A stretch of DNA of 64,000 nt from Candidatus Omnitrophota bacterium (lineage in GTDB: Bacteria; Omnitrophota; Omnitrophia; Omnitrophales; Aquincolibacteriaceae). A program made the position numbers and the translations under genes. Positions 15,661-50,944 of the stretch are shown piece after piece. Where the stretch lies: NCBI GenBank assembly GCA_043732705.1, contig JAYTHE010000040.1, positions 3,250 through 67,249 on the forward strand, given 5' to 3'. The notes beneath the pieces are model-generated. The model ran no database searches and was not told where the DNA came from. It saw nothing but the letters and a program-made list of their open reading frames with translations. How positions within the stretch are numbered: the first letter of the stretch is position 1; every line of letters begins with the position of its first letter.

Positions 15661-16515
15661 TTAAAGTATCTCTACTTCTTCAATCTCTCCGGCCTCCGGT
15701 CTCCGGTCTCCGGTCTGGCGCTGTCCTCGGATAATTCCGCGTTTGGATTCTTCGATAAACTTCACAAAATGTTTAGATTCAGGGCTTTTGCATTCCTTTT
15801 TAATTTCTTCCAAGGCTTGAGTGACATTTAATCCCGAGCGGTACAGCAATTTAAAAGCATGTTTGATTTCTGTGCGAGTTTCCAGATTAATCCTTGCGCG
15901 GCGCATACCCACGACATTTAAACCTTGTGCGATTCCCGGCCGGCCGCCGCACATGATGTAAGGCGGGATATCTTTATTGAAAGCGGATAAAGCAGAAACC
16001 ATCGCAAGCGTTCCGATACGTGAGAATTGATGGAAGCCGGTCATGCCCGAAAGAAAAGCTTTGTCTTCAACATGGCAATGGCCGGTGAGTGAAGCTTGAT
16101 TGACCATAATGATGTTATTTCCTAAAACACAATTATGCGCGATATGGCAATAAGCCATGATGTAATTTTCATTTCCGATTACAGTCGAGGTTCCGGGTTC
16201 GGTGCCGCGGTGAATGCTCACAAATTCACGAATGACATTCTTGTTTCCGATTTTTGTAAAGGTAGGCTCATTTTTAAATTTAAGATCCTGAGGCTCATGT
16301 CCAATAACAGCATGCATATGGATGGTGTTGCCATCACCAATTTCAGTGCCGTGACAAAGCGTGGCGCCGTGTAAAATTTTATTATTCGACCCGATTTTGA
16401 CACCGCTCGCAATAATCGTATTTGGCCCGATTTCATTCCCATTTCCAATCATGACATTTTTACCGATGATTGAGAGAGGGTGAATCTGGTTGGATTGAAT
16501 TGAGGTTTGCATGCC
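15661..16515 (-). CDS. lpxA: UDP-N-acetylglucosamine O-acyltransferase (LpxA) with a roughly 20-aa C-terminal tail extension
   Basis: Left-handed beta-helix hexapeptide repeats throughout, and the C-terminal helical domain ...KHAFKLLYRSGLNVTQALEEI... I chose the start at the internal Met (MQTSIQSNQIHPLSIIG) rather than at the ORF-track start of 16581. Confidence 0.85.
   Translation of the reverse strand, partial: GMQTSIQSNQIHPLSIIGKNVMIGNGNEIGPNTIIASGVKIGSNNKILHGATLCHGTEIGDGNTIHMHAVIGHEPQDLKFKNEPTFTKIGNKNVIREFVSIHRGTEPGTSTVIGNENYIMAYCHIAHNCVLGNNIIMVNQASLTGHCHVEDKAFLSGMTGFHQFSRIGTLAMVSALSAFNKDIPPYIMCGGRPGIAQGLNVVGMRRARINLETRTEIKHAFKLLYRSGLNVTQALEEIKKECKSPESKHFVKFIEESKRGIIRGQRQTGDRRPEAGEIEEVEIL
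15694..15717. repeat. Tandem heptanucleotide repeat (CTCCGGT, three perfect units plus a partial fourth) inside the 3' tail of lpxA
   Basis: CCTCCGGTCTCCGGTCTCCGGTCTGG read directly; it encodes ...TGDRRPEAGE... in the LpxA C-terminal extension. Confidence 0.8.
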
Positions 16516-16853
16516 GCAAATTATAGAGGGGAAGGCAACAGGCGAAAAGCTCAATCTAATCACTTGGCGAATATGCATCAATATTGGCGTTATAGTAGTG
16601 ATATTGTTAGTGACTAGAGAGAAGAGAACGATTGCTCAAATATAAAAGCTTTTATCATTGATTAACTTACATGATCAATATTGACCAAATTCATATTTAA
16701 GTCATTTAAATATAATAGGTTGCGAACATAAAATCACAGTGTCTATTCTTGCAATTCTAAAAGTCGCCTGCTATATTCCTAAGGTCGATTAAAAACTATT
16801 CACGCGAAATCATAAATAGAGCTCATATAACAGTCATTTTTGCAGGGGAAATA

Positions 16854-19800: not shown

Positions 19801-22800
19801 ATAAGGGTGATGAGTTTTTCGTTTCCTTCTACTTGGGGCATGACCTTGTGGGCTGGATTAGAGCGCGGCGCGAGAAGGGCGAGCAACCTTGGCTTAGCAG
19901 TTACAACCGTCGCAACGATCCTGAACATAAAATGATAGGTTCCATGGCTAGGGATGCCGAAGAAAAATATGTCAGCGGCGGGAATCAAATCAACGAACTC
20001 ATTAATTTAATGCATGAAGAATCGGTCGCTCGGAAGCCGCATATTTATTTGTCAGACGAACATCCCCTGGTTCGCTACAGTAAAAAACGCCAAGCAATAG
20101 TAACTAAAACAATTGCAAGGCTTCAAAGCGCAGAAGCTGGGTTATTAGCTTTGAAAGCACAGCTGGATCGGTCAGTTGACGCACGGCAACCTGAGCCGGA
20201 AAAATTCGATCAAGAGCGATTCAATAGCGCTGCCACAGAAAGATTGGTTCAAAAATTTATTCAGCCTGCCATCGAAAATTTAAAGCTGGGCAAGTTGTCC
20301 GATGCATGGAAGTTGATTCAAACTGCAATTGGTTTGATGAACGATACAAACGGGCTGGAAAGCGGCGATGGATTGAGGGTGATTCAGTTACTTCGTGCGA
20401 CCCGAAACGCAATCAGTATATTTGCTGATAAGTACGGCGAGATAGTTCTAGAAGCAGATATGCGCGCTGAAACTGCTGAAGCTCGCTCCGAAGTGCGAAC
20501 AGTCACGCTAAGAGTTTTAACGGCGGCTATTATGGGATTCGCATTTTCTGCGATTGCGGAGCAAAAACCCGTGGCGCCGCCCGTGCTGCGTGCTGCTACG
20601 GACACGGATCCTCAATTGCTACGCAAAATCGAAGCAGTTCTTCGCCAGCCCATGCCCACTGGAAACTCAGCAGGTGCTATCCAAAGTCGAAAAAATTTAG
20701 AGACTGCCAAGGAAGCAGCGCTTAAAGAGTTGGCCGGAATCTCCAATCCCTCTGCTCTTTATGGATTATTGGCGGCACTTTTAGGAGATAAAAATCATCC
20801 CGCTTCATTGAAAGCGTTAGTTGCGGAAACGCTTAAAAAGGGTTTAGAAGCGCCGCAGTCCTCTTCTACGGTCAACGCGGTATTGAAGATTTTGTTTCAA
20901 ATTGCAAAGGATAAAAATAACCCGAATAGGACGCAAGCCATTGGAGTGCTTTCTCAAGCCGCTGAAAAGCAACGAGCGGTCATCGGTGAATTTGGAATGA
21001 GGGAAGTCAGGCTCATAATCGATGGTGCTGATAAAGAAGCTGCAGCCAAGCGTAATCTCCTTATCGCCGAACAGGAAAAAATCATCCGTGCCGTTAACCC
21101 AGCAGATAAGGAAGCCTGGGAAAAAAGAAAGAATGCACTTCTTGTTTTGCGCGGCTTCGTAGAAGATCCGGCTTTTACGCCGGGAGACAGAAGCAACATT
21201 CTCAAGCTTGTTGTTGGCTATTTGATAAGTGCTCCCGATGCAGTCGATCAACAGAAAGGAAAAGATCAAAATGGCCCTTGGGCTAAAGTAGCTGCAGCTC
21301 AGGTTCTTGAGTCAATTGGCGGAAATGAGGCTCGTGACGCTTTAAATCAATTTGTCACTGATCCGGCGCAAGATCCAAAGGTTAAAGCGGATGACGCTTT
21401 CCAGAAGGTTCTTAAAAAATTCTCAGGCCGCTCCGAAATGCGCACGCCTGAAATTACAAACGTTCGCTTTGTTTTGCCCAGCAAGATTCAGGGGAATCAA
21501 GTTCGATCTGCGGCAGCTTACGCGGTTGAAGAGGGATTACTAACGGGAACTGAGTCGTGGTGGCAAGAAATTCATACGCGGGGCAATTTAGATTTGACTC
21601 AACGCATTCTAAATGATTCGCCCAAGTTTTCGTATGAGGAATTATCGAGGTTCGCGCGCGCTTTGCCACCAGCCACGGCTTATGTCGTCGTCGTGAGAAA
21701 AGGAGATTTTGAACAAGCTAAAGAATTTTTATCGATCAAGCGGCCGATGATTTTTTTGGTTGAAGATAAAGCCGATGAAGAGGGATTGAGGAATTTAGCG
21801 ATTAAGCAGTCGGTTGCACATCTTGTTTCAGTAGCTTATGTTTCTGATTGGAAAAAAGAAAATGTTGCGTCGCTTGTGCGCGAAGAATTAGACCGAGTCG
21901 ATGGCCGTGATTTAGTGCCCCGTTTAGACCGAGTAAATATTTATTTGTCCGGGCATCTGTTAGATAGTACTAATGAAGGAAACGCACGGGCCATGCTGGC
22001 GGACAAAGGTGGGTTGTTGCGGGAGCGAGTTGGGAGTTTAGCTCGTTATTATAGATTGTATGGAGGGCAAATAAAAAGTCCTCTAAAAAGCTGGGCTGAC
22101 TTTGATGTTGCAGCAGGTAAAAATTCTCTTGAAATTATTCGTTCCGAATCGCGAGCAACTGTAACAGAAATTGAGTTTACGGGAGAAGTTCTGGTTCCCT
22201 GGCGTATCGAACTAAAATTAAAGGACGGGAAATCGGTTGAGCTTAAACTGAATCAGGAAAATAAGGCAGCGGCCAAAAAGATGTTCGCTCAAAGCTTACC
22301 TATCAGACCGCTTGTTTATACAATCAATGATGCTAGTTCAGGCACAAATTTCGGAAGTATTCAAATGAATCTTAATGAGAATCCTAAAGATCTTACAGAG
22401 AAAAATCAAATAAGCGACATCCGTATCGTTAAAGATTCCGTGGCCGTGTCTGGAAACAATACCCTTGTTAAAGAAGTGAAAGCATGGTTGGAAAGTTTTG
22501 AAAAAGAGAAGCAGGCCTTTGAGGGTAAGAGCTTAAAGCTTTCTCCTTTTCAAGTTGACGATATTCCTCTCGAAACGAAATTTCATCCGGTAACCCATAG
22601 CCTTATATCAGCTCGATTAAATTTTAGAGGGAATAATCCGGTTCAAGTGGGACTTGAGGCTGATTCTGCAAGTCTTGTGGCGATGTCAAGCGCAGGCGCT
22701 GAGCCGCGCGAAACAAGAATAACTTTTGATGTGACTGTTAGAAAACCGCTTACTTTGCCGCAGCCCGTGGGAAAAATTCATGCTACCGCTCGTGTCAGCA

Positions 22801-25800
22801 CAAATGGTTTTACATTAGATGAAGTTCGTAAAACGCAAACAAATCCTGCGGCCGTTGATGCGCAGGGCATTGTTTCTACGGCTGCGGCATGGCTTGCAAC
22901 TGAAGATCTTAGCGAGAGCAATCCAAGACTCCAGCCGGCCCCCGCCCGCTCCGAAGTGCGGGGCGATGCAACCCAACCTGTTGGCGGAAATCTTTTTACT
23001 AGACCCATGCCCCGGCGTGATGCTCTTAAGACGGCGGGTTTGCTTGGATTGATATCAGCTTTGGGCAGAACACATGTCATCGGCGCAACGGGTGATGTTT
23101 GGTTTGGTGATTCAAATTCGGCAAATCTTGCTTACACGAGCGAGCAATTTGTTAACACCGCAGATGGACGTACTTTTTGGATTTTTGTTGCGAAGCAGAA
23201 TATTCAATTTCAAACCAAACCTGATTTGCAGAACGCTGCTTGGTCTCCCTTATCTGGCACGCTTGCGGATGGAAATGTGGCCGTTATTGAACTGCCTAAA
23301 AGTGCTAATGGCAAAACAGGTTTTGGGCGCGTTGCTCGCGCTACGACGCCATCTCAGAATCAAAGACAGGCAATAACCCAGCTAAGTAATTCCAAGCCTT
23401 TGCCGTCGGAAGTACAAACAATTTTGAATTCAAAGGCTTACGCGGGCAAGAAAGTGACTGTTGTCCAACGCTCCGAAGTGAGGGGAACAGTTTTTCAAAT
23501 TGTAGATGCGTTTGAGGTATCGAAAACAGAAGCGAATTCCGAAAGTGGAGCCTATGCTGGCCCTTACTTATTGCCATTTTTGGAGCGAATGCCGGAACGG
23601 TTCAAATTTTATAAAGCGCTTCCTCAAAGTATTAATTTTGTTCACCCTATGGATGAGACCGATATTGGAGCCGTCAATTTTTTTGCCTCCATTAACACGG
23701 CATCGAAAGTGGATACAAGCAGTCTAGGTGCGGTGAAGGCAAGACGGTTCAAATTTGAAGATGAGTTCGTCGGAAAAGAAATGCTTTTTGTTTACGATAC
23801 TACAGCACAAGAAATCCATTCTATTTTCGCCCTTGATTCCAGAAACAGAATCGTAGGGGGAATCATGTTTAAGAAGTTACCAAGCGATATACTCAAACCC
23901 GAACGGCCATTTCCATTGGATCCAATTATGACGCAGGCTCTTGACCATGCCGGAGAGAGCCGGGTGCCTGCTAAAATTAAGTATAGTCCTCAAACAAAAG
24001 ATTTGGAGATTGAGTTTAATACTGTGGCTGAGCCCGAGCAGCAAGTTGGGCCATCTCTGCCTGACGCTATTTTAAAATTTAATTCTGGGTACGAAGGATT
24101 CACGGATAAGCCCATCGATTCAGCCGATGGAGCGCATGAATTTACTTTTGACACCATTGCAATAGCGGCACAGGGCCTGGATGAGCTTATTGAAAGCATT
24201 GCCCAATTAGAGGGTAATGAGGGTGTAAGTAGTGTTTACGAAAGAATCAAGGCACCACAGGGACGGATCTCTTTAATTTTTGATTCAAAAAATAATCTTT
24301 TAGCAATTCAATCTGGTGCGGCGGGAGCTAAAGCACGAGATGCTATTGTTTTTGAAAAGAAATCGGGTGCGATCTCCGAAGTTGTGGCGCGATCGAGCGC
24401 GATGGCACAAACCTTAACTGTTTTACCTACCGTTCCTGCGCCGATCAAAGGCTTATTTGGTTTTAGTGGAAAAGATCACTGGATTACTTTTACTGCGCGC
24501 TCGGAAGCTCGTTCTCAAACCGGTGGAGCCGTACGTAACGAATGGAAAATTTCGACGAAAGGTCGTTTTTCTGCCATAAGCCCCACAGGGAAAATGATTT
24601 CATTGGGTGAACGTTCGCCGTTTGAGCGTGTTGTTGAGAAAAGAGTAATTGGAGACAAGCTGATTGTAGTTACGCAAGATCCCAACCAAAAAAATTTGCG
24701 AGTTTTTAATCGGGAGGGGAAAGCTCTTCAGTTAGGTGAGTTTAATGTTATTTATGCTTTTAAGGAGTACCGCGTTGTTGGTGGTGATCGGTTAATCGTT
24801 CGCATGCGGGACGCCGGCTCCCTTTTTATTTATGATTTGGCAGACGGATCTCAAATACCTTTGGATGGCCACCCTGCTATTCGTGATAGCGGATCCATTT
24901 TGACAAATGAAATGGACGTGCGTGGCAATACTGTTTATGCCCTACATGACGGTAGTTGGTATGGTTATTCAATTCGAACCGGAAAATTAGTTAGGGATGG
25001 GCATCCGACCAAACGTGGCACAGCCTATATACCAACCGGGCTAGATATTGCTTGTTACGGTGTCATCGCAGCAATGATTGCGATTGGCTCGCTTCTTATA
25101 CCCTTAGCACATCCGAATGGGGTCAATTTTGCAGCGACCCTAGCTCAAATTGTTTCCCGCTCCGAAGCGCGGCTGTACACAAATCATGGTGGTAATGAGC
25201 CGCTTAAGCAGTTCCAAGAAGATGTTCAAGCTGGAAAAATTTCTCGTGGTAGCTGGCTTGAAGTCCGGCTCAGCAGAATTGCCGCCGTCCAAAAAGGACA
25301 ATTCGAGGGTTTCGAAAACGGGCAGCTGATACTCAAAGATAGCCGTTTCAATCCTCCCGCGATGAATGAACATTTTAATCTCAAAGAAATTGAAGCCATC
25401 GTCGTGAGGGGGCAATACGAGCATTACTTCAATATTGGGAAGAGTTTGGCAATATTTTTAATCCCGCTGTTCCTCTCTTTCGTCATAGCTTATAAATATA
25501 ATCTTCATCGAATGGGGATGGCTGTTTCGGCCACGATAGCTGTGGTTGCTAGTTTTATTTTGTCGCGTTTTCTCCCCGCTTCTGCTCCAGTGGAAGTTGT
25601 TGCTGTCGCAGAAAAAATTAAGGATATCATTGCCAAGCGTTTGGGCGCCAACCCAGAGGTTGTGACGGAAGACGCTCAGCTTGTCGAAGGTTTGAATGCC
25701 GATTCCTTGGATCTTATCGAGCTTATTAATAAAATTGAATCGCAATTCAAGATAGATATTTCAGATGCTGAAGCAGAAAGACTTGCCACAGTCGGTGATT

Positions 25801-28800
25801 ATATTCAACTTGTACAAAAAAAACTCGCCCGCTCCGAAGCGCGAGAAGATTATCGTCCTCAAAAACCAGGTGAAGAAAAACCGGCGCCGGGTATGTTCGG
25901 TCAAACACGCGTATTTGGCCGCTCCGAAATGCGGGAAATTCTCGCAGCATTTCCGACGGAATCACCGACGCACGTCGATTTTGAAAGACTATTTGCCGCC
26001 TACTTGAGCGATGTTTATACAGCTTGGAAAATTGACGGCGATGACATTAAAGATAAAGCCGATCGCGCATATGTGAAGCAGATGGCATTGCAGCATTTGC
26101 GCCAAAGATTTTTAGGCACAGGCACGGTCGATCCGAATGGGCCGAAGGCACCTTTGCATATTCGCCGTAATAAGGGATCGCTGAACGTGGTTTCAGCCGA
26201 AGGTAATGCCGTAGTCACTTCGCAGTTAACCTATAATGAATTGCGCGAAGCGGGCGCGTATAAGCGTTCTGACCTTGATACTGATCCTAGAAGAGATGAG
26301 TATCTTAAGGCTGCTTCAGGAGCTTGGGTTACTTGGAATACATTGGATGGCGGCATCGGCGAAAGTTTAATGCGTGAAGAATGGTTGCTGAATAAGGGGC
26401 TGAGGATGCGCTTGAAGGATATTCTCTCTCAAGCTGAGCAAGCGGATACGAAATATCAAGGTCCATTGGCGGCGCTTAAGCAAGCTGAAGAAAATGGTGA
26501 AACCGAAGAAATTATTAAAGCGCTGCGCGAAATTGAAAAATTAGCCGGTTATGCAGATCCGCTTCAATTGAAAATGGGCGCAAAAGGGACGGATCTTGGC
26601 CGCTCGGAAACGATTCGCGGTAATCAATATTTTGTTGGTGATGCGGAAAGACGTTTGCTCTTAATCGCGGATATTGCGACCAAGAGAAAATTCGGGAAAA
26701 TTGCCTTTCAGCCGTTTGTGAATTATCAATCCGCAGAATCTTATGTAAATCTTATGCAGCAGCCCTATCTATGGGATGTGATTGAAGGTAGTGAACATCC
26801 CCGGACTTATCAGCAAGCTCTCGAAGATGCCGGAGTTGAGATTAAAACACCGCTTGAACAGCAAGATTTGCCTAAATTTGAAATTGAAGACGGTGCGAAG
26901 GCCGGGCTTCCGACTTTGGATTCAAAAGTGCAAGATAAAGGCCAGCCGGGCGGACATGGACAATGGGGCGCTTTTTATATGATGGATTTCACCGAAATTG
27001 CTCCGCCAGATAATGGTTTTCATAATGTGCGCTTTTTTGGTAACGGTGACAACAATCATGGAAATCCCGAGCCGATTGTCGTTGGTTTTGCTATCGTTCA
27101 AAAGAAACCCATTTTGAAAATTACGACACCTGCTACCGCGATTGATACGAAGGGCGGAAAAGAAACCCTGCGTCTCATTCAACTTAAGGAACGGGTGACC
27201 AGAGTTTTGGATCAATGGGAAGAAATTGGCGCTAAAAACGCGGGACAAATTGACTTATTTTACAAAGCAGGGCAGCGCGGCGGTTTTGGCGAACAGGGCC
27301 GGCAGCATTTCAACACCAACTTGTTCGTATTTGATGAAGAGCAAATGCATCCGATTTTAAGAAAAATGCGTGAAATTGTCGGTGAGGATGAATTTTTAGA
27401 TGCGGTTATGCCGCTGTTGTTTGATAAAAGTGATAAAGCCAAAACTATTGACGGTAAAAAATTCGTATCGATGGACTCAGCCATTGGATATGTCATTCAT
27501 AATTTGAATACGTTTTACAGCACCGATCCACGGCTTGAAGAATTGCGCCGGGAATACGGCCCGCAATTGCTTTATTACATGGATTATGATCGTGGTATTT
27601 TTGCGCCCAAAAAGAAGGCCGAAGATCAATACCTGCAAGAGCGTACGGATTATTATGGTCCTTTTGATGAGGAGGCTAAAAATTTCCATGATGCCGAACC
27701 CGGGCTGACACCACCGGGGTTTGATGTTACCGATCCGGTCGAAAAAGACAGCAAAAAAGCCGATTCAAAATTTTGGGGCGAAGTGCAGCATTGGAATGAT
27801 TCGTTTGGAATATCGCGTGTCAGAAAAATGCAATCACTGAAGGTTGAAGGGCGTGTGACGATTCGCAATGCCGAGTATGTCGGGGATGTCGTGATTATCA
27901 ATCGTTTTGGCCGTGAAGACAAAACAAAACCCGCCAAACGCGTTATTTTAAGCAATGGTGTTTATTTCGAACAATTGAAAGCACTCGGTTATTGGGCCGA
28001 AGATCATTTGCTCTTAGAGAATGTGACAATCACGATTGATGAAAGTGGAATTCTGTCGACAAAACCAACCCGCTCCGAAATCCGGAATTTGGATGAGCTA
28101 TTAGCTGAATTGAATAAAGCCGTTCGAGCACCTCTGAATTACAGAGGTGCCGATGCTATGCCGCCAACGACAACGCTAGTCGCACTTGCGCCTAATTTGA
28201 ATGTTGTTATTCAAGTGAGGGATGGAGTTGGCACATCGAGAACAGTGCTTACTTATACTTTAGGAGCAAGAGAATTAGAAACAAGAAATGTATTGCCTGG
28301 CGGACGAAACGCACAGAGCTTCCCTATTGGCGGCGTGGCGTCGTATACCGTTAATTTTCAATTGCCTGCGGCTGACGATGCGAAGGTCGTGGCAGATGCG
28401 CTTAAGCGCGGGTTGCCTCAGTTCGTGACTGGCGATTTTAACGTAGTGCCAGCAGGCAATTCCGGAAGCATCGCCATTACTTTTACACCGAAACGCACAC
28501 AACGTACCGAGTTGATTGAAGCCGCTATTCCTCAAGTTATGGAAGCAATCTATCAGCTGGCGAGGTCAAGAGGGCGGAAAGTCGTAGATTATCAGTTGGT
28601 GGGCTATTCCGGTATCGTATCGAAACAGACATACGGTGCAATGGACCGCTTTCCGGTTACTTTTTCCGCCGAAACCGAACAAATAAGACAAGTGGTTCGC
28701 GCGGCGCTTGATAAAATTTTAGATCATTATGCTGATGGCAGGGTTGAATCCATTGAGGTGAAATTGCAAGATGACGCGCTCACAACAAGCGAGACCCCGT

Positions 28801-30635
28801 CTATCGCCATTGTTTTGAAAACCCGCTCTGAACTGCGGGATCTTAAGTCTGAGCCAATTTTGCTTGGAAAATTCACCCCATTTCTTATCGCTGGCGAAAC
28901 GGAGGACCCTCTCGCAATTACACCTCAGCTGGATGAGTCAAAGCAGGCTGTTGGAAATTTACAGTTTCGCAAAGTCCACTTGGGCAATTTGTCAGCTACA
29001 GCTATCGAAGAAATTAGAGATGCACTGGGACAATCAGGCCTGGACCGCGGTCATCAGGCGTTTTTTGAAAGTAATGCAAGCGGACTTGAAAAAGTTGACG
29101 CCGTAATTCGCAGCGATGGACTTTTAACTGCTTTGATCGGAAAGCAAGCGGGACATGGCGCTGTAACGCATATTGAGTTTGCGGTTCCCCTCGTTTATGT
29201 CGGAGAATATACAGTTCGGCTTGGTTATCCATCACATGGAACTTTAACAATTCCAATTGCGAGTGTTGTCAAAATTGACACAGCGGGTGGCATCATAAAT
29301 ATCGTTGCAATTGAGCCCGTGACGTCTGCCGCACGCTCCGAATTGCGGCTTCAATTGGCAGACAATACTAATCCGCAGGTACGCGCAATTGTTAAACCAT
29401 CCCTCGTTAAAGCTAGAGTAACAACTCCGGATCAATTTAATGTTCCAATTGCTGCAGGGCAAAGTATTGCAGATTCTGTGCAATCGTTTGTCTCAACTAA
29501 TTATGGACATCAAAACTTGAATGATTTGCTTGCTAACACAGGTTCCACGGGTATTAAAGTTACCTTTTTAAATTCCAAGAAAGGAATACTGTTCAGTACG
29601 GAGCTTCATTCAGATCCTTCACCAGCGGGACGAGGTACTCAATATACCGTTCTCAATTCATTTGGCACAAGAAAACCAAACATGATTACGAGCGTTTTAA
29701 TTGAAGTTGTGCGCAGCGAATTGCGCGAGCAAGTTTCGCAAAGACAGTCATCTGTTGAAACGCTCAGCGAAATTTTGCTCGATTTTAAAGCCGGAATTCT
29801 GCCTTATAATGAACTTGTCGATTTATTGAAGGGTTCGCCTGCCCAGGTTTTATTGGATGCCGCAAAGGCTGCCGGAATTGATTTGAAGCTGCCCGGCAGT
29901 ATCGATAACAGCACAGAGGATGTGCTTTCCGCGCTTTTCCCAGTGGACTTAAATGAGGCGATTACAATCAATGTTCCAAAAATTACGGTGCGTGTCAATA
30001 ATGAAAAACCGACTTCGAAGAATATTACGGGAGCGGTGATTCAATCGGCAGAGACGGTGATTGCGATGAAAAAGCAAGCTCCTCAAGCGTTGATTGCACA
30101 TTTGCGCGCTTTAAGTGAAAGAGAATTTTTGGATTTGGCGATTTCGGATAAGCCCGGTGCCGAATCTAAATTTGACTCTGCGTTGAAACAGTTTTTAGGC
30201 TCGGCAGCCGCCGGTGTTCCAAGTCTTGAGGAAAGAAAAATATTGTTTGGGAAAATTCGGCTCCATACAAAAGCAAGCCTGGCTGCTTTTGTTAAAGATC
30301 AAGGCGGGGCAGTTGCAATTATGCTGACAGGCCATAACGACGAAATTTTTACCAGTCTCCAAGGCGGTTTTCGCTTTAAAGTGAAAGGCGCGAAAGGCAA
30401 AGCTCTTTCTGGAAAGGCCTTTTTTGCCATGCCGGTTGTCAGTGTCGGCGCCGCAAAAGTTATGGCGAATATACGCGGTGTTGATGTTTCAATTGCCAAC
30501 TCGGCTATCCCAACGTACTTTAAAGCGCTTGATATGCAGGTTAACCGTGATAGTGACGGAGCGTTTGTATTCAGTGCGATCGCCCAACTTCTGCAGGCCA
30601 TTTTTAACGCTCAATACATCGGAACCATGGCTTAG
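16854..30635 (+). CDS. Giant secreted/membrane multidomain protein (4593 aa). It carries a signal peptide and at least four predicted transmembrane segments. Recognisable regions are a ChaN/Tiki-like N-terminal region, HEAT-like repeats, a beta-propeller-like region, an ACP-like domain and a UDP-sugar-pyrophosphorylase-like domain. A periodic RSE-hydrophobic-R motif recurs throughout.
   Basis: A single uninterrupted ORF in the six-frame track with the N-terminal signal peptide MFQLKNKTVRASVAVFTAVCLSFTQAAISA. Domain calls are from my reading of motifs (see findings). Confidence 0.8.
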   Translation: MFQLKNKTVRASVAVFTAVCLSFTQAAISAPIFSASAPAEVSLPDSLRLDRAVALKVPSAIATIEKLQPGNGKTIFHIQTAHGHYQAQQNINLLLKDLEKNYGVKTVLVEGSSNPLNPEIINFFPKDHEKTMRVVDLLTRKAILKGSEIYLLESGKARGFGIEDEVAYNQNLQDFALVIRAREESKQFLDNLEQSIERLSAVYLSTNLRSFLKQVERKETGNIPFDAYLQQLKIAAKKYAEIDLADPAWQLLWPMLTRVFTIEKLEKKIDAVQFDQQKKDFLTAIKPYTAVEIPREWAKNSPEVAQRVSVYEEVKSLLDLKDLSAKLPDPDTSILFENLVKSLPANFNYARFSSVTSFCGILMIKSEIKADVLTAEISKMEDQITDKLAEKKTAKELVAVLKDYRMLQKLFSLELAPSDYEVIAGSETGGRRPESIQPSVLANRLQTLGASASSLPAKQVRGVKFNHVKELDSLFNQALKFYAGARLRDGKMLARIEERLKETHADKVAVITGGFHSEPFAKYFEQRGYNYALMTPKITTVDAEGRNDYLNAMMMLATAQRLQARRLEARGPRTESATIEGKSVAAMDAVELSLLAKPVSEIVRSEPSLSVEATAVRALWSTEKSSLHSASSSASSTTRATARVEITGARSEMRVSEFPKLGEIPLEVDASQAEKQVFIGKEEWLGDRENLQPIFIQGRGYLAIIVTGPGKWKDNVITSFFISYDAGGKINNVVSLPGGSFHAKSKQIDVKVSVIDEFATATDVQLWVTLKNRKARIFRIKEDKGGEFALYKALKALITSQKRTVSVADGNAGIKKAKSQIVDALKNLESNPTYQQAQRLSHSKTAPKQRSERVITDYQRTVRGLALLPSRSEARKFSDVARFVVGKFVNAVMITGLAVAEIVRITFLSFLMLSFAYVARERAQGPNKTPLQNNEAVRGNVVNLEIIGRHRSEMRPFIHPERISNDLDLLTAVQASREYQSLDKGDEFFVSFYLGHDLVGWIRARREKGEQPWLSSYNRRNDPEHKMIGSMARDAEEKYVSGGNQINELINLMHEESVARKPHIYLSDEHPLVRYSKKRQAIVTKTIARLQSAEAGLLALKAQLDRSVDARQPEPEKFDQERFNSAATERLVQKFIQPAIENLKLGKLSDAWKLIQTAIGLMNDTNGLESGDGLRVIQLLRATRNAISIFADKYGEIVLEADMRAETAEARSEVRTVTLRVLTAAIMGFAFSAIAEQKPVAPPVLRAATDTDPQLLRKIEAVLRQPMPTGNSAGAIQSRKNLETAKEAALKELAGISNPSALYGLLAALLGDKNHPASLKALVAETLKKGLEAPQSSSTVNAVLKILFQIAKDKNNPNRTQAIGVLSQAAEKQRAVIGEFGMREVRLIIDGADKEAAAKRNLLIAEQEKIIRAVNPADKEAWEKRKNALLVLRGFVEDPAFTPGDRSNILKLVVGYLISAPDAVDQQKGKDQNGPWAKVAAAQVLESIGGNEARDALNQFVTDPAQDPKVKADDAFQKVLKKFSGRSEMRTPEITNVRFVLPSKIQGNQVRSAAAYAVEEGLLTGTESWWQEIHTRGNLDLTQRILNDSPKFSYEELSRFARALPPATAYVVVVRKGDFEQAKEFLSIKRPMIFLVEDKADEEGLRNLAIKQSVAHLVSVAYVSDWKKENVASLVREELDRVDGRDLVPRLDRVNIYLSGHLLDSTNEGNARAMLADKGGLLRERVGSLARYYRLYGGQIKSPLKSWADFDVAAGKNSLEIIRSESRATVTEIEFTGEVLVPWRIELKLKDGKSVELKLNQENKAAAKKMFAQSLPIRPLVYTINDASSGTNFGSIQMNLNENPKDLTEKNQISDIRIVKDSVAVSGNNTLVKEVKAWLESFEKEKQAFEGKSLKLSPFQVDDIPLETKFHPVTHSLISARLNFRGNNPVQVGLEADSASLVAMSSAGAEPRETRITFDVTVRKPLTLPQPVGKIHATARVSTNGFTLDEVRKTQTNPAAVDAQGIVSTAAAWLATEDLSESNPRLQPAPARSEVRGDATQPVGGNLFTRPMPRRDALKTAGLLGLISALGRTHVIGATGDVWFGDSNSANLAYTSEQFVNTADGRTFWIFVAKQNIQFQTKPDLQNAAWSPLSGTLADGNVAVIELPKSANGKTGFGRVARATTPSQNQRQAITQLSNSKPLPSEVQTILNSKAYAGKKVTVVQRSEVRGTVFQIVDAFEVSKTEANSESGAYAGPYLLPFLERMPERFKFYKALPQSINFVHPMDETDIGAVNFFASINTASKVDTSSLGAVKARRFKFEDEFVGKEMLFVYDTTAQEIHSIFALDSRNRIVGGIMFKKLPSDILKPERPFPLDPIMTQALDHAGESRVPAKIKYSPQTKDLEIEFNTVAEPEQQVGPSLPDAILKFNSGYEGFTDKPIDSADGAHEFTFDTIAIAAQGLDELIESIAQLEGNEGVSSVYERIKAPQGRISLIFDSKNNLLAIQSGAAGAKARDAIVFEKKSGAISEVVARSSAMAQTLTVLPTVPAPIKGLFGFSGKDHWITFTARSEARSQTGGAVRNEWKISTKGRFSAISPTGKMISLGERSPFERVVEKRVIGDKLIVVTQDPNQKNLRVFNREGKALQLGEFNVIYAFKEYRVVGGDRLIVRMRDAGSLFIYDLADGSQIPLDGHPAIRDSGSILTNEMDVRGNTVYALHDGSWYGYSIRTGKLVRDGHPTKRGTAYIPTGLDIACYGVIAAMIAIGSLLIPLAHPNGVNFAATLAQIVSRSEARLYTNHGGNEPLKQFQEDVQAGKISRGSWLEVRLSRIAAVQKGQFEGFENGQLILKDSRFNPPAMNEHFNLKEIEAIVVRGQYEHYFNIGKSLAIFLIPLFLSFVIAYKYNLHRMGMAVSATIAVVASFILSRFLPASAPVEVVAVAEKIKDIIAKRLGANPEVVTEDAQLVEGLNADSLDLIELINKIESQFKIDISDAEAERLATVGDYIQLVQKKLARSEAREDYRPQKPGEEKPAPGMFGQTRVFGRSEMREILAAFPTESPTHVDFERLFAAYLSDVYTAWKIDGDDIKDKADRAYVKQMALQHLRQRFLGTGTVDPNGPKAPLHIRRNKGSLNVVSAEGNAVVTSQLTYNELREAGAYKRSDLDTDPRRDEYLKAASGAWVTWNTLDGGIGESLMREEWLLNKGLRMRLKDILSQAEQADTKYQGPLAALKQAEENGETEEIIKALREIEKLAGYADPLQLKMGAKGTDLGRSETIRGNQYFVGDAERRLLLIADIATKRKFGKIAFQPFVNYQSAESYVNLMQQPYLWDVIEGSEHPRTYQQALEDAGVEIKTPLEQQDLPKFEIEDGAKAGLPTLDSKVQDKGQPGGHGQWGAFYMMDFTEIAPPDNGFHNVRFFGNGDNNHGNPEPIVVGFAIVQKKPILKITTPATAIDTKGGKETLRLIQLKERVTRVLDQWEEIGAKNAGQIDLFYKAGQRGGFGEQGRQHFNTNLFVFDEEQMHPILRKMREIVGEDEFLDAVMPLLFDKSDKAKTIDGKKFVSMDSAIGYVIHNLNTFYSTDPRLEELRREYGPQLLYYMDYDRGIFAPKKKAEDQYLQERTDYYGPFDEEAKNFHDAEPGLTPPGFDVTDPVEKDSKKADSKFWGEVQHWNDSFGISRVRKMQSLKVEGRVTIRNAEYVGDVVIINRFGREDKTKPAKRVILSNGVYFEQLKALGYWAEDHLLLENVTITIDESGILSTKPTRSEIRNLDELLAELNKAVRAPLNYRGADAMPPTTTLVALAPNLNVVIQVRDGVGTSRTVLTYTLGARELETRNVLPGGRNAQSFPIGGVASYTVNFQLPAADDAKVVADALKRGLPQFVTGDFNVVPAGNSGSIAITFTPKRTQRTELIEAAIPQVMEAIYQLARSRGRKVVDYQLVGYSGIVSKQTYGAMDRFPVTFSAETEQIRQVVRAALDKILDHYADGRVESIEVKLQDDALTTSETPSIAIVLKTRSELRDLKSEPILLGKFTPFLIAGETEDPLAITPQLDESKQAVGNLQFRKVHLGNLSATAIEEIRDALGQSGLDRGHQAFFESNASGLEKVDAVIRSDGLLTALIGKQAGHGAVTHIEFAVPLVYVGEYTVRLGYPSHGTLTIPIASVVKIDTAGGIINIVAIEPVTSAARSELRLQLADNTNPQVRAIVKPSLVKARVTTPDQFNVPIAAGQSIADSVQSFVSTNYGHQNLNDLLANTGSTGIKVTFLNSKKGILFSTELHSDPSPAGRGTQYTVLNSFGTRKPNMITSVLIEVVRSELREQVSQRQSSVETLSEILLDFKAGILPYNELVDLLKGSPAQVLLDAAKAAGIDLKLPGSIDNSTEDVLSALFPVDLNEAITINVPKITVRVNNEKPTSKNITGAVIQSAETVIAMKKQAPQALIAHLRALSEREFLDLAISDKPGAESKFDSALKQFLGSAAAGVPSLEERKILFGKIRLHTKASLAAFVKDQGGAVAIMLTGHNDEIFTSLQGGFRFKVKGAKGKALSGKAFFAMPVVSVGAAKVMANIRGVDVSIANSAIPTYFKALDMQVNRDSDGAFVFSAIAQLLQAIFNAQYIGTMA
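18542..18572. repeat. GC-rich tandem 7-8 nt repeat (GGCTCGGA GGCTCGAG GCCCGAG GCCCGAG) inside the giant gene
   Basis: Read directly; it encodes ARRLEARGPRTE. A related GC-rich block GGAGACCGGCGGCCGGAGGCCCGAGAGC lies at 18131-18158. Confidence 0.7.
25608..25826 (+). other. Acyl-carrier-protein-like domain embedded in the giant protein (phosphopantetheine-attachment DSL motif)
   Basis: AEKIKDIIAKRLGANPEVVTEDAQLVEGLNADSLDLIELINKIESQFKIDISDAEAERLATVGDYIQLV matches the ACP consensus (LGxDSLD...ELV...E..F...I.D......TVGD..DYI). The candidate Ser codon TCC is at 25704-25706. Confidence 0.6.
25921..28067 (+). other. UDP-sugar pyrophosphorylase (UDPGP family)-like domain embedded in the giant protein
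   Basis: ...VTWNTLDGGIGESLMRE... (about 26343) resembles the UDPGP G-rich loop (LNGGLGTSMG). ...GQPGGHGQW... (26946) matches the PGGHGD motif. The C-terminal part resembles the left-handed beta-helix tail of UGPase. Confidence 0.5.
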
Positions 30636-30654
30636 TTTTCTCCGTTTTTAAAGC

Positions 30655-30695
30655 CCGCTGCCTCGAAAGGGTGGCGGGTTTTTTATTTTCCACGG
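30655..30695 (+). terminator. Rho-independent terminator after the giant gene
   Basis: AAAGCCCGCTGCCTCGAAAGGGTGGCGGGTTTTTTATTTT: a GC-rich stem followed by a T-run, 20 nt after the stop codon. Confidence 0.5.
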
Positions 30696-30745
30696 CTGTG
30701 TTAGAATACCGCGCCTTAAAACTGACCTTTTGAAATGGGGATTTT

Positions 30746-31954
30746 GTGTTCAAAACGGCCGAAGAACAACTTCAAATTATTGGCGAAGGCCTTGTTGATT
30801 TAATTTCGCGTGATGAGCTGATTAAGAAGCTCGAATATTCGCGTTCCAAGAATAAGCCTTTGCGCGTCAAGTATGGCGCCGACCCCTCCGCTCCGGATTT
30901 GCATTTAGGGCATACCGTGCCTTTACGTAAATTACGCCAATTTCAAGATTTAGGGCATCAAGTGGTTTTTATTATTGGTGATTTTACGGCTCGCATCGGC
31001 GATCCTTCCCACAAATCGGATACGCGTCCCATGTTGTCCGAAGAACAAATCCAGCAAAACGCGCTGACTTATCAAGAGCAGGTTTTTAAAATTCTCGATA
31101 AGTCCAAAACCGAAGTGCGTTATAACTCAGAATGGCTCGCGAAAATGAACGCGGCCGACTTTCTCACTTTGACTTCCAAATATACGGTGGCGCGGCTTTT
31201 AGAGCGAGATGATTTTAAAAAGCGTTATGAATCAGGCCGGCCGATTGCGCTGGTTGAATTTATGTATCCGATGCTGCAAGGCTGGGATTCCGTTATCGTC
31301 AAGGCGGACATTGAAATCGGCGGAACCGACCAAACTTTTAATCTTCTGGTCGGGCGCGAATTGCAAAGCCGCGAAGGCATGTCACAGCAAATCGTGATTA
31401 CCTTGCCGATTATAGAAGGCACCGACGGCGTTCAAAAAATGTCAAAAAGTTTAGGGAATCATATTGGCGTGATGGATACCCCGCGTGAGATGTTCGGAAA
31501 AATTATGTCGATTCCGGACAACATGATCGAGCGTTATTACCGTTATTTAAGCGCTTTGCCGAAGACCGCTATTGAAGTGGCCGCGGCGGATTTAAAATCT
31601 GGCGTTAATCCGCGCGATATCAAAGCGCGGCTGGGCGAGCGCATGGTGGAGCTTTTTCATTCTTCGCAAGCGGCGGCTGACGCACATCAGGAATTCAACG
31701 AGATTTTTAAGAATAAAGGCCTGCCGGATGAAATTCCCGAATTCAAAATTAAAGAAGATATGGATTTAATTTCACTGCTTGTGCATTGCGGGTTAGCGCC
31801 GTCCAAATCGGAAGCGCGCCGCGCTTTGGATGCCGGAGCCGTAAAAGTCAATCAGGAAAAAGTTTCGGACATGAAATTGGTACTTGATTTAACCGCTCCG
31901 GTGATTCTTCAGAATGGTAAACGAAAATTTGCACGTCTCGTGCGAGCATCTTAA
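30746..31954 (+). CDS. tyrS: Tyrosyl-tRNA synthetase with a C-terminal S4 domain
   Basis: HLGH (...[10 protein letters not shown]...) and KMSKS (...[11 protein letters not shown]...) class I motifs, with an S4-like C-terminus. Confidence 0.9.
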
Positions 31955-48808: not shown

Positions 48809-48817
48809 AGGTTTTCT

Positions 48818-50789: not shown

Positions 50790-50944
50790 CAAACACTTAA
50801 TTCCAAACTCTAAATCCTAATATCTGAATTCTAAATACACTCAAAATCACAATGCTTCAAATTTCTAAACGCTTTAGTGTTTTGACTTTGGGCATTGGAA
50901 TTTATTTAGAAGTTAGTGTTTAGAGTTTAGGATTTTAATAATTT

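What the first reader, a model, noticed from the sequence alone, without database searches (positions are those of the whole stretch)
25608..25826. Acyl-carrier-protein-like domain with a DSL phosphopantetheinylation motif inside the giant membrane protein
The segment AEKIKDIIAKRLGANPEVVTEDAQLVEGLNADSLDLIELINKIESQFKIDISDAEAERLATVGDYIQLV fits the ACP/PCP four-helix consensus. This includes the Asp-Ser-Leu attachment motif (Ser codon at 25704-25706) and the C-terminal TVGD..DYI helix. It follows a pair of transmembrane helices directly and ends exactly at an RSEAR motif. A carrier domain in a giant exported protein, next to a sugar-nucleotide-forming domain, suggests a tethered biosynthetic activity on the envelope. 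Candidates include lipid, glycolipid, or D-alanyl/teichoic-like modification. No PPTase or adenylation partner is visible in this window.
Basis: partly seen in the sequence, partly recalled or inferred. Interest (0 to 1): 0.75.

Follow-up and report, generated by a model that had tools for sequence, protein, structure and literature searches.

The report
Membrane-tethered ACP module in punctuated giant protein
A complete, intact acyl-carrier-protein domain really is embedded in a 4593-residue Omnitrophota protein, as one species-specific module of a giant ORF built from whole-protein-sized pieces joined by a strict RSExR motif that may mark the long-sought cleavage points of such giant proteins.

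Summary
Residues 2917-2992 of the 4593-aa ORF (16854..30635 +) form a full-length AcpP-type acyl carrier domain. It scores 40-48 bits on PF00550 (cut-off 20.8) and passes TIGR00517 when isolated. The AF2 model has pLDDT 88 and superposes on T. maritima ACP at 0.8 A. The Asp-Ser-Leu serine codon is at 25704-25706. The domain follows a TM hairpin and ends one residue before RSEAR.

No loading enzyme, PPTase or condensing domain is detectable in the giant protein or in the window. The neighbouring UDP-sugar-pyrophosphorylase-like segment is separated from the ACP by two RSExR motifs. Positional orthologues in sister Omnitrophota keep that segment but have no ACP.

The giant ORF consists of 17 mutually unrelated segments joined by 16 copies of [S/A]-R-S-E-[VALMI]-R (0.07 expected). 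Only the N-terminal, pyrophosphorylase-like and C-terminal segments are conserved. The motif falls where free-standing homologues end.

Best reading: a lineage-specific, membrane-tethered, atypically weakly acidic ACP module of a polyprotein-like modular envelope protein. Cleavage and phosphopantetheinylation are inferred, not shown.

The parts
16854..30635 (+). Giant ORF of 4593 aa. It consists of 17 mutually unrelated segments joined by 16 RSE[AMVLIS]R motifs.
   Evidence: The motif starts at nt 18801, 19464, 19704, 20484, 21429, 22140, 22947, 23469, 24498, 25158, 25830, 25920, 28071, 28824, 29334 and 29712. Chance expectation is 0.07 copies. The DNA motif CGCTCCGAAnnGCG occurs 14 times in this ORF (all in its + reading frame) with one 1-mismatch match elsewhere at 55911; 0.76 expected for the window.
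25158..25172 (+). RSEAR joint that closes segment 10 and precedes the ACP-bearing module.
25173..25844 (+). Segment 11 (aa 2774-2997), the ACP-bearing module: N-terminal ~85-aa soluble part, TM hairpin, ACP, RSEAR. No relatives were found for the non-ACP part.
25434..25490 (+). Predicted TM helix 1 of the hairpin (aa 2861-2879).
   Evidence: Kyte-Doolittle 19-mer score 2.21
25518..25574 (+). Predicted TM helix 2 of the hairpin (aa 2889-2907).
   Evidence: Kyte-Doolittle 19-mer score 1.91. The short loop between the helices is KYNLHRMG.
25602..25829 (+). AcpP-type acyl carrier domain (aa 2917-2992; PF00550 core is 25611-25811).
25704..25706 (+). Codon TCC of Ser2951 in the Asp-Ser-Leu motif, the predicted 4'-phosphopantetheine attachment site.
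25830..25844 (+). RSEAR joint placed where free-standing ACPs have their C-terminus.
25845..25934 (+). Segment 12, a 30-aa spacer or mini-module that ends in RSEMR.
25935..28085 (+). Segment 13 (717 aa), a conserved 'frame' module and remote UDP-sugar pyrophosphorylase-like nucleotidyltransferase.
16854..18815 (+). Segment 1 (654 aa), the conserved N-terminal 'frame' module with a Sec-type signal peptide. Invariant residues are HIQxxH...EG...TGGFH. There is a weak lead to the Tiki/ChaN superfamily.
29727..30635 (+). Segment 17 (302 aa), the C-terminal module. It is conserved in P0038, and the family's C-termini end in small residues.
14187..15434 (+). fabF (KAS II), an acyl-ACP-using enzyme with no acpP beside it. 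This is a clade-wide arrangement.
15661..16581 (-). lpxA (acyl-ACP-dependent UDP-GlcNAc O-acyltransferase), the left border of the giant-gene locus.
30746..31954 (+). tyrS, the right border of the giant-gene locus.

Best explanation
The segment is a genuine, probably functional, AcpP-type acyl carrier domain. It forms the C-terminal domain of one ~220-residue membrane-anchored module (N-domain, TM hairpin, 10-residue linker, ACP). That module belongs to a modular giant protein characteristic of a clade of Candidatus Omnitrophota.

The giant ORF is an in-frame concatenation of protein-sized, mutually unrelated modules. Each module is closed by the strict peptide [S/A]-R-S-E-[V/A/L/M/I]-R. Three modules form a conserved frame: the N-terminal signal-peptide domain, the UGPase-like domain and the C-terminal domain. 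The modules in between are replaced wholesale between species. The ACP module is one such species-specific module.

Most likely mechanism (inferred): the RSExR joints are recognition sites for a specific processing protease, so the module is released as a ~24-kDa membrane-tethered ACP. The cell's AcpS, encoded elsewhere, converts Ser2951 to the holo form. The tethered carrier then holds or delivers an acyl chain at the membrane surface for an envelope-lipid reaction, or docks as an acyl-ACP subunit of a membrane complex. It does not serve as the soluble housekeeping FAS shuttle.

Shown: the fold, the serine, the boundaries, the modular and punctuated architecture, lineage specificity, and the absence of cis or nearby partners.
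Inferred: cleavage, phosphopantetheinylation, topology and the acyl substrate.
For: ACP identity:
- PF00550 and the AcpP-type NCBIfam models are passed.
- The domain aligns end to end with solved ACPs.
- The AF2 model has pLDDT 88 and its top hit is a FAS-II ACP at 0.8 A, with all top hits being such ACPs.
- The D-S-L-D motif, E41, E47, F50 and the TVG turn are kept.

Not a fresh capture and not decayed:
- GC3 is 0.36, like the giant gene (0.41) and unlike core genes (0.48+-0.03), so the module is compositionally ameliorated.
- It nevertheless still passes an equivalog-level HMM.

Specialised rather than housekeeping:
- Mean identity to 31 bona fide fabF-linked AcpPs is 38%, whereas those AcpPs average 52-58% among themselves.
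- Net charge is -6 against -13 to -15 for the AcpPs.
- The helix-II acidic residues E48 and E49 are lost.

Modular and punctuated architecture:
- There are 16 RSExR motifs against 0.07 expected.
- The 17 segments are mutually unrelated.
- The same punctuation is found in Omnitrophota relatives, with 3-22 copies per protein.
- In relatives the motif is kept with synonymous codon variety, so it is a peptide-level signal.
- Across the related proteins RSExR occurs 239 times (177 unique sites used for the logo), while RTExR, RSDxR and KSExR each occur 0 times; the logo shows no conserved flanks.

Joints sit at natural protein ends:
- The ACP alignment ends 1 residue before RSEAR.
- 41 free-standing seg13 homologues end a median of 12 residues before the module's end.

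Lineage specificity:
- Only segments 1, 13 and 17 are conserved.
- No similarity is found for the other segments even with phmmer --max.
- No ACP is present in any relative or related locus.
- Positional orthology is shown by tyrS/ABC synteny.

Other clades of the superfamily carry different strict recurrent motifs, as expected for sites that co-evolve with a cognate enzyme.

Literature: cleavage of Omnitrophota giant proteins is suspected but the cleavage points are unknown (bioRxiv 10.1101/2023.11.21.568195).
Against: - No direct evidence of cleavage, and no identified protease. The Tiki/ChaN lead for seg1 is weak: E~0.01 in 2 of 6 members.
- Segments do not generally start with targeting signals (3% against 3% at random).
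- The ACP module is a singleton, so conservation of the serine cannot be tested.
- The reduced acidity of helix II could impair recognition by AcpS or FAS enzymes.
- Topology is ambiguous. The positive-inside rule does not decide whether the hairpin puts the ACP in the cytoplasm, and an extracytoplasmic ACP could not be loaded.
- The whole-module AF2 model is unusable (pLDDT 43).
- The only second copy of the sequence (Logan contig) is 100% identical, so it comes from the same population.
Confidence: 0.6

Rival explanations
1. The giant protein works uncleaved as one envelope machine. The ACP is a tethered carrier functionally coupled in cis to the adjacent sugar-nucleotide-forming domain, for glycolipid-, lipid- or teichoic/D-alanyl-like modification.
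For: - The ACP is intact and sits about 35 residues upstream of a UGPase-like module.
- TM helices tether it to the membrane.
- lpxA and fabF are the upstream neighbours of the gene.
Against: - The adjacency is not conserved. Orthologues keep the UGPase-like module (59-65% identity) but have unrelated segments, and no ACP, before it.
- Two strict joint motifs and a spacer separate the two modules.
- No adenylation, acyltransferase, KS, condensation or PPTase domain is detectable in cis or in the window.
- DltC models score far below cut-off.
- The fabF-lpxA neighbourhood is clade-wide, and it is also present where the giant gene is absent.
Confidence: 0.13
2. The ACP fold is retained but has been exapted or is degenerating. 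It would act as a non-carrier structural or protein-interaction module (compare ACP subunits of complex I, the ISD11-ACP complex and the Orf2971-FtsHi complex), or as evolutionary passenger material in a hypervariable region, without a dedicated acyl-transfer pathway.
For: - It is a singleton module in a region that turns over wholesale between species.
- Net charge is only -6 and E48/E49 are lost.
- No partner is encoded nearby.
- Most variable modules in the family lack any recognisable domain.
- Structural ACP subunits appear among the fold and sequence hits (8xks_R, complex-I ACPs).
Against: - All core ACP positions, including D-S-L-D, are intact.
- The isolated domain still passes an equivalog HMM despite being compositionally ameliorated.
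- Known structural ACP subunits still need the acyl-4'-PP arm, so this reading does not exclude modification.
Confidence: 0.2
3. The embedded domain is the organism's housekeeping AcpP, delivered from a polyprotein.
For: - There is no free-standing acpP in 64 kb, and none beside fabF, where it usually lies.
- The domain passes TIGR00517 when isolated.
- The gene lies next to fabF and lpxA.
Against: - The rpsA-fabF arrangement without acpP is shared by all close relatives. These include relatives whose giant gene lacks an ACP and relatives with no giant gene at all, so they must encode acpP elsewhere.
- Low acidity and divergence are atypical for a FAS shuttle.
- The N-terminal TM tether is incompatible with a freely diffusing carrier unless there is a second cleavage.
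Confidence: 0.04
4. Assembly or annotation artefact: a chimeric join or a read-through of separate genes.
For: Metagenome-derived sequence. The only second copy is identical and probably comes from the same population.
Against: - The reading frame is uninterrupted over 13.8 kb.
- An independent assembler gives the same 17.9-kb contig.
- The same architecture and motif occur in a dozen or more independent Omnitrophota MAGs and contigs.
- The module is bounded by the family's own joint motif on both sides.
Confidence: 0.03

Closest known systems
Type-II fatty-acid-synthase acyl carrier protein AcpP (TIGR00517 / PF00550)
   Same: Same length, four-helix fold and D-S-L attachment motif at the start of helix II. 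It aligns end to end (E~1e-17) and is 40-49% identical to the nearest ACPs.
   Different: - Not a free-standing gene: it is fused at its N-terminus to a TM hairpin and followed in frame by RSEAR and 1600 more residues.
- Net charge is -6 instead of about -14, and helix-II E48/E49 are lost.
- Only 38% mean identity to bona fide AcpPs.
- Not in a fab operon.
Carrier domains of PKS/NRPS/PUFA megasynthases and specialised ACPs (DltC, AcpM, AcpXL, OlsHI-ACP)
   Same: A carrier domain embedded in, or dedicated to, a larger system.
   Different: No KS, AT, A, C or TE domain in cis. The specialised-ACP NCBIfam models are all far below their cut-offs, e.g. DltC 18.9 vs 68 and AcpM 43 vs 146.
Giant ORFs of Omnitrophota (Seymour et al. 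2023, PMC10066038; West-Roberts et al. 2023, bioRxiv 10.1101/2023.11.21.568195)
   Same: Same phylum. Multi-thousand-residue proteins with TM segments, few annotated domains and poor conservation. Post-translational cleavage is suspected.
   Different: - Smaller (2-6 thousand aa).
- It has a conserved three-module frame and a strict RSExR joint motif.
- I did not find that motif mentioned in those papers or in bioRxiv 10.64898/2026.06.07.730766.
- No ACP has been reported in such proteins.
Proteolytically processed polyproteins (viral polyproteins; gingipain RgpA/Kgp/HagA precursors of Porphyromonas; my own knowledge)
   Same: Several protein-equivalents lie in one ORF, separated by a short, strictly conserved site. 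Module ends coincide with natural protein termini.
   Different: Cleavage has not been demonstrated here and the protease is not identified. The modules are hypervariable between species, and this is a chromosomal bacterial gene.
Structural ACP subunits of membrane complexes (mitochondrial complex I SDAP/NDUFAB1; Orf2971-FtsHi complex, 8xks)
   Same: An ACP held at a membrane complex. These chains appear among the fold and sequence hits.
   Different: Those are separate soluble ACPs that dock through the acyl-4'-PP arm. Here the ACP is covalently tethered by TM helices.

Membership tests
PF00550 PP-binding / ACP-like superfamily | Profile HMM score above the gathering threshold over the full domain | tested here: met
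   39.9 bits in the whole protein and 47.8 bits for the isolated segment, against 20.8; profile positions 1-66 of 67
PF00550 PP-binding / ACP-like superfamily | Four-helix-bundle ACP fold | tested here: met
   AF2 pLDDT 88.1; Foldseek hit 6lvu_A with TM 0.88/0.96 and rmsd 0.8 A; 109 PDB hits at E<=1e-3, and all 50 listed hits are ACP chains (free or in complexes)
PF00550 PP-binding / ACP-like superfamily | Conserved Ser in the (D)-S-(L) motif at the N-terminus of helix II | tested here: met
   N-A-D-S2951-L-D is invariant in the alignment with the nearest ACPs; codon at 25704-25706
PF00550 PP-binding / ACP-like superfamily | 4'-phosphopantetheinylation of that Ser | not testable with these tools
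   Needs mass spectrometry or an in-vitro AcpS/Sfp assay. No PPTase is encoded in the window.
Housekeeping AcpP (TIGR00517 equivalog) | Equivalog HMM score at or above the trusted cut-off | tested here: inconclusive
   77.1 vs 70.45 for the isolated segment, but 67.7 when scored within the whole protein
Housekeeping AcpP (TIGR00517 equivalog) | Free-standing ~75-80-aa soluble protein | tested here: not met
   Embedded at residues 2917-2992 of 4593, ten residues after a TM hairpin
Housekeeping AcpP (TIGR00517 equivalog) | Strongly acidic surface and helix-II recognition face | tested here: not met
   Net charge -6 against -13 to -15; E48S, E49Q and A45K
Housekeeping AcpP (TIGR00517 equivalog) | Location in a fab gene cluster (fabG-acpP-fabF) | tested here: not met
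   fabF lies 1.4 kb upstream of the giant gene, but the ACP is 10 kb away inside another gene. The clade has rpsA-fabF without acpP.
PKS/NRPS-type megasynthase carrier domain | Catalytic partner domains (KS/AT/A/C/TE) in the same polypeptide | tested here: not met
   Pfam, NCBIfam and PDB-sequence scans of all 4593 residues find only the ACP
DltC (D-alanyl carrier protein) | DltC equivalog HMMs above cut-off, plus dltABD context | tested here: not met
   NF003464 18.9 vs 68; TIGR01688 15 vs 52.35. No dlt genes in the window.
RSExR-punctuated modular giant proteins of Omnitrophota (family delineated here) | Conserved seg1 N-terminal domain, UGPase-like seg13, and multiple [S/A]RSE[hydrophobic]R joints | tested here: met
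   seg1 and seg13 are shared with P0002, P0005, P0006, P0008, P0038, P0040 and P0150. There are 16 joints here and 3-22 in relatives.
Proteolytically processed polyprotein | Several protein-equivalents in one ORF, with a conserved site at each junction | tested here: met
   Segments are mutually unrelated. The ACP and seg13 modules end where free-standing homologues end. The motif is strict.
Proteolytically processed polyprotein | Cognate protease identified | tested here: inconclusive
   seg1 has invariant HIQxxH/EG/TGGFH residues and weak PF04187 (Tiki/ChaN) hits in 2 of 6 members, E~0.01. There is no PDB match.
Proteolytically processed polyprotein | Cleavage products observed | not testable with these tools
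   Requires proteomics or N-terminomics
UDPGP family (PF01704) for the neighbouring segment 13 | Pfam gathering score; catalytic motifs | tested here: inconclusive
   No hit for the window protein at E<=0.1. P0040 scores 19.3 vs 22. The family profile hits only UGPases in the PDB, best E=0.0026, with PGHG/NGDN/D-KGG aligned.

The most novel reading that the evidence does not exclude
These Omnitrophota giant ORFs are cellular polyproteins, in effect 'operons in one reading frame'. RSExR (and D-x-A-M-[ML], G-[AS]-R-L-[AV] or D-A-A-x-L in other clades) would be the cleavage site of a co-evolving protease, possibly the conserved Tiki/TraB-like N-terminal module. The variable modules between the conserved frame modules would be swapped in and out at these joints. 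In this species one such cargo is a whole ACP, released as a membrane-tethered holo-carrier. This would supply the missing cleavage-point map for Omnitrophota giant proteins.
Probability: 0.4. Interest if true: 0.85.

Novelty: new variant of a known kind. Interest (0 to 1): 0.66.

Why it matters
ACPs are normally small free proteins or domains of assembly-line synthases. An AcpP-type carrier hard-wired to the membrane, as a species-specific module of a giant non-synthase protein, is an unusual deployment of a central metabolic cofactor protein.

The ACP also acts as a ruler. It is the one module whose natural boundaries are known exactly, and the RSEAR motif begins precisely at its natural C-terminus. 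Together with the pyrophosphorylase-like module, this shows that the motif marks protein-equivalent boundaries.

This gives a concrete, testable map of candidate cleavage points for Omnitrophota giant proteins. The literature names that as the missing piece for understanding whether these proteins act whole or as many products. It also allows module-by-module structure prediction.

Tried and rejected
1. The motif as a nucleic-acid element. In this genome 12 of 16 copies share CGCTCCGAA, with codon choice at P~1e-8 to 1e-9 against the gene's own usage. Relatives, however, keep RSExR with CGN/AGR, TCN/AGY and GAA/GAG variety, so the constraint is on the peptide. Within-genome codon homogeneity (23% against 9% identical 9-mers) remains unexplained.

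2. 'Each segment starts with a targeting signal.' Segments 5 and 8 here look like Sec and Tat signals, but across 239 joints the hydrophobic-start frequency equals the random expectation. Rejected as a rule.

3. 'acpP was swallowed from its place upstream of fabF.' Rejected, because rpsA-fabF without acpP is clade-wide.

4. Recent capture of a core acpP. Rejected on GC3 and on at most 49% identity to any ACP found.

5. Searches for orthologues of the ACP module found none:
- the word-index protein search;
- JGI metagenome contigs;
- GTDB genome loci;
- the top 150 of 8876 HMMER hits.
The full-length query timed out.

6. The single-sequence AF2 model of the whole module was unusable (pLDDT 43).

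7. Sequence searches of the other 16 segments against Pfam, NCBIfam and the PDB gave nothing beyond marginal HEAT hits.

8. Literature string searches for the motif returned only noise.

Full report
**1. Observation**

It corresponds to residues 2919-2991 of one uninterrupted 4593-codon ORF, 16854..30635.

- Pfam PP-binding (PF00550) matches residues 2920-2986 over essentially the whole profile. The score is 39.9 bits in the context of the whole protein and 47.8 bits for the excised segment; the gathering score is 20.8.
- NCBIfam's ACP models are the only other significant hits. The excised segment passes NF002148, NF002150 and the AcpP equivalog TIGR00517 (77.1 vs 70.45). DltC, AcpM, AsbD and similar models score far below their cut-offs.
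- Against PDB sequences the segment aligns end to end with complete free-standing ACPs, e.g. T. maritima 6lvt residues 8-80 of 81, E=2e-17.
- An AF2 model made with a small alignment of the nearest ACPs has pLDDT 88.1 and four helices. It superposes on 6lvu_A with TM 0.88/0.96 and rmsd 0.8 A, and every top hit is a type-II FAS ACP.
- The Asp-Ser-Leu serine is residue 2951, codon TCC at 25704-25706.
- Two hydrophobic stretches (2861-2879 and 2889-2907) precede the domain, with a ten-residue linker.
- RSEAR starts one residue after the ACP alignment ends.

There is no other ACP in the 64-kb window.

**2. What surrounds it: a punctuated, modular giant protein**

The ORF contains 16 copies of R-S-E-x-R where 0.07 are expected. 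They cut it into 17 segments of 30-717 residues with no similarity to one another.

In this genome the motif is also uniform at DNA level (CGCTCCGAAnnGCG). That pattern occurs 14 times in the giant ORF plus one 1-mismatch match elsewhere in the window (nt 55911), and its codon choice differs from the gene's own usage at P~1e-8 to 1e-9.

An exhaustive HMMER search with residues 2549-3744 found 8876 relatives. Nearly all match through segment 13, and many are themselves 2000-7900-residue proteins.

Twelve of the 70 listed hits of at least 1200 aa (counting this protein itself) share the RSExR punctuation, with 3-22 copies each. A scan of GTDB genomes placed the family in Candidatus Omnitrophota MAGs.

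In those genomes the motif is kept as a peptide, with free use of CGN/AGR, TCN/AGY and GAA/GAG codons. It is therefore a protein-level signal.

- RSExR occurs 239 times across the related proteins; the logo, built from 177 non-redundant sites, is [S/A]-R-S-E-[V/A/L/M/I/T]-R with no conserved flanks.
- RTExR, RSDxR and KSExR occur 0 times against 239 RSExR.
- The median spacing is 171 residues.

**3. Conserved frame and variable cargo**

Only three segments are conserved in relatives:
- segment 1 (N-terminal 654 aa, with a Sec signal peptide; 25-60% identity);
- segment 13 (717 aa; 24-67% identity);
- segment 17 (C-terminal).

Segments 2-12 and 14-16, including the ACP-bearing segment 11, have no detectable counterpart in any relative, even with phmmer --max.

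L002 and L004 carry the giant gene followed by tyrS and the ABC ATPase, as in the window. They are therefore positional orthologues. None of the relatives or related loci encodes an ACP.

A survey of 80 fabF loci in metagenome contigs gave two results:
- The order pdh-rpsA-fabF-lpxA(-) is clade-wide and never has an acpP beside fabF.
- The giant gene is either present between lpxA and tyrS or absent altogether.

**4. The joints sit at natural protein ends**

The ACP is the one module whose natural limits are known, and RSEAR begins within one residue of where free-standing ACPs stop.

Segment 13 has many free-standing homologues of 560-830 aa. For 41 of them, the C-terminus falls a median of 12 residues before the module's end (IQR -22 to -3). 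That is just before the linker and motif.

The giant ORF therefore reads as an in-frame concatenation of whole-protein equivalents.

[quoted passage not shown] Neither that paper, nor Seymour et al., nor a 2026 preprint on complete Omnitrophota genomes mentions this motif or an ACP.

Post hoc, I found that seg13-bearing large proteins of other clades lack RSExR. They carry other strict recurrent strings, mutually exclusive per protein:
- D-x-A-M-[ML];
- G-[AS]-R-L-[AV] (8 copies in P0017, which also has the seg1 domain);
- D-A-A-x-L.

Shuffled sequences give means of 0.01-0.1 copies. This is what one expects of sites that co-evolve with a cognate enzyme, but it needs an unbiased scan.

**5. 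The ACP itself**

Compared with 31 bona fide AcpPs taken from fabF-linked genes:
- it is 38% identical on average (maximum 51%), whereas those AcpPs average 52% (median 58%) among themselves;
- its net charge is -6 against -13 to -15;
- in helix II it keeps D35, S36, L37, D38, E41 and E47 (E. coli numbering) but has S and Q for E48 and E49, and K for A45.

The nearest ACPs found in 5.8 billion proteins are 49% identical.

Its GC3 (0.36) matches the giant gene (0.41) rather than core genes (0.48+-0.03). It is therefore neither a recent copy of a core acpP nor visibly decaying. It looks like a specialised carrier.

The N-terminal ~140 residues of its module (soluble part plus TM hairpin) have no relatives.

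**6. Partners**

Pfam, NCBIfam and PDB-sequence scans of the whole 4593 residues detect nothing but the ACP, apart from marginal HEAT hits.

The rest of the window encodes housekeeping functions: BacA, an acyl-CoA dehydrogenase, sulfite reductase, ScpAB, aromatic amino-acid genes, S1, FabF, LpxA, TyrRS, a GldFG-like ABC system, IleRS, futalosine-pathway genes and others. It contains no PPTase, adenylating enzyme or ACP-dependent acyltransferase other than FabF and LpxA.

Segment 13 is a remote UDP-sugar-pyrophosphorylase relative. Its adjacency to the ACP is not conserved, and two joints separate the two modules.

**7. Mechanism**

Shown:
- a genuine ACP fold with an intact serine;
- a TM hairpin tether;
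- strict joint motifs at natural protein ends;
- a conserved three-module frame with wholesale-variable cargo;
- lineage specificity of the ACP module.

Inferred:
- RSExR is a processing site;
- the module is released as a ~24-kDa membrane-tethered ACP;
- a trans AcpS makes it holo;
- it holds or delivers an acyl group at the membrane, or docks as an acyl-ACP subunit.

The conserved segment 1 has invariant HIQxxH, EG and TGGFH residues. Two of six members hit the Tiki/ChaN family PF04187 weakly. This is a lead for the protease, not a result.

Topology could not be decided. A hairpin puts the ACP on the same side as the module's N-terminal part, and a cytoplasmic location is required for the carrier model.

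I put 0.6 on this overall reading. I put about 0.95 on 'real ACP fold with intact Ser', about 0.5 on 'holo, functional carrier', and about 0.5-0.6 on 'joints are cleaved'.

**8. Rivals**

- An uncleaved machine with ACP-UGPase coupling (0.13). It is disfavoured by non-conservation and the lack of partners.
- An exapted or passenger non-carrier domain (0.2). It is favoured by singleton status and low acidity, and disfavoured by intact core residues.
- The housekeeping AcpP delivered from a polyprotein (0.04). It is disfavoured by clade-wide synteny and the TM tether.
- An artefact (0.03). It is disfavoured by an identical independent assembly and by family-wide architecture.

**9. Novelty and verdict**

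The ACP domain as such is ordinary. Its deployment is not: a TM-tethered AcpP-type module inside a motif-punctuated giant non-synthase protein of Omnitrophota. I class it as a new variant of a known kind.

The context is the more interesting result. It comprises a strict joint motif at protein-equivalent boundaries, a conserved frame, swappable cargo and clade-specific alternative motifs. The ACP provides the cleanest calibration of it.

Interest is 0.66. If the polyprotein reading is proven, interest would be about 0.85.

Noticed in passing
window 16854-30635; motif starts at 18801, 19464, 19704, 20484, 21429, 22140, 22947, 23469, 24498, 25158, 25830, 25920, 28071, 28824, 29334, 29712: There are sixteen [S/A]RSE[hydrophobic]R joints. 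In this genome 12 of 16 use the identical CGCTCCGAA codons. Identical 9-mers are 2-3 times more frequent within a genome than between genomes (23% vs 9%). That suggests concerted evolution or module exchange by microhomology at the joints. This is unexplained.
   Followed up: partly
P0017, P0027, P0029, P0056, P0077, P0137 (hits): Large seg13-bearing proteins of other clades lack RSExR. They carry other strict recurrent motifs, mutually exclusive per protein: D-x-A-M-[ML], G-[AS]-R-L-[AV] and D-A-A-x-L, with 3-8 copies against ~0.02-0.1 in shuffles. The motifs were found post hoc.
   Followed up: partly
L021-L100 (fabF loci), window 15661-31954: The giant gene shows presence/absence polymorphism between lpxA and tyrS among close Omnitrophota relatives. 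It is present in L021-24, L027, L029, L030, L038 and L081. It is absent in L028, L033, L034, L037, L040, L067 and L087.
   Followed up: partly
window 16854-18815 (segment 1): The conserved N-terminal module has a Sec signal peptide and invariant H77-I-Q-x-x-H82, E110-G and T512-G-G-F-H516. It gives weak PF04187 (Tiki/ChaN superfamily) hits in 2 of 6 family members. It is a candidate hydrolase or protease.
   Followed up: partly
window 20499-20567 (start of segment 5) and 22962-23093 (start of segment 8): Directly after RSEVR, segment 5 starts with a Sec-like signal peptide (TVTLRVLTAAIMGFAFSAIA|EQK). Segment 8 contains a Tat-like MPRRDALKTAGLLGLISALG. A family-wide test found no general enrichment of such starts.
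   Followed up: yes
window 25845-25934 (segment 12): A 30-residue mini-module lies between two joints. In relatives the shortest inter-joint spacing is 11 residues. These could be spacers or released peptides.
   Followed up: no
window 30590-30632 and the C-termini of P0002, P0003, P0006, P0008, P0038, P0040, P0150: Family members end in similar amphipathic tails that finish with small residues (...IGKSA, ...IAAAA, ...LLTAA, ...IGTMA). This could be a C-terminal sorting signal or a degron.
   Followed up: no
P0008 residues 1233-1369: Another variable module with a recognisable 'borrowed' domain: DUF218 (SanA/YdcF-like), lying between joints at 1200 and 1430. Otherwise the variable modules in the family are almost devoid of Pfam domains.
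   Followed up: partly
window 16854-30635 vs core genes: The giant gene has lower GC3 (0.41 vs 0.48) and uses AGA/AGG for about 30% of its Arg codons outside the motif, against ~9% in the neighbouring genes.
   Followed up: partly
window 56969-57562 and 59932-60285(-): A YqaJ-like recombinase ORF and an IS110-family transposase fragment, which may be remnants of mobile elements.
   Followed up: no
window 47334-51661: A cluster of futalosine-pathway menaquinone genes: a UbiA/MqnP-like prenyltransferase, UbiX, MqnC and a UbiE-type methyltransferase.
   Followed up: no
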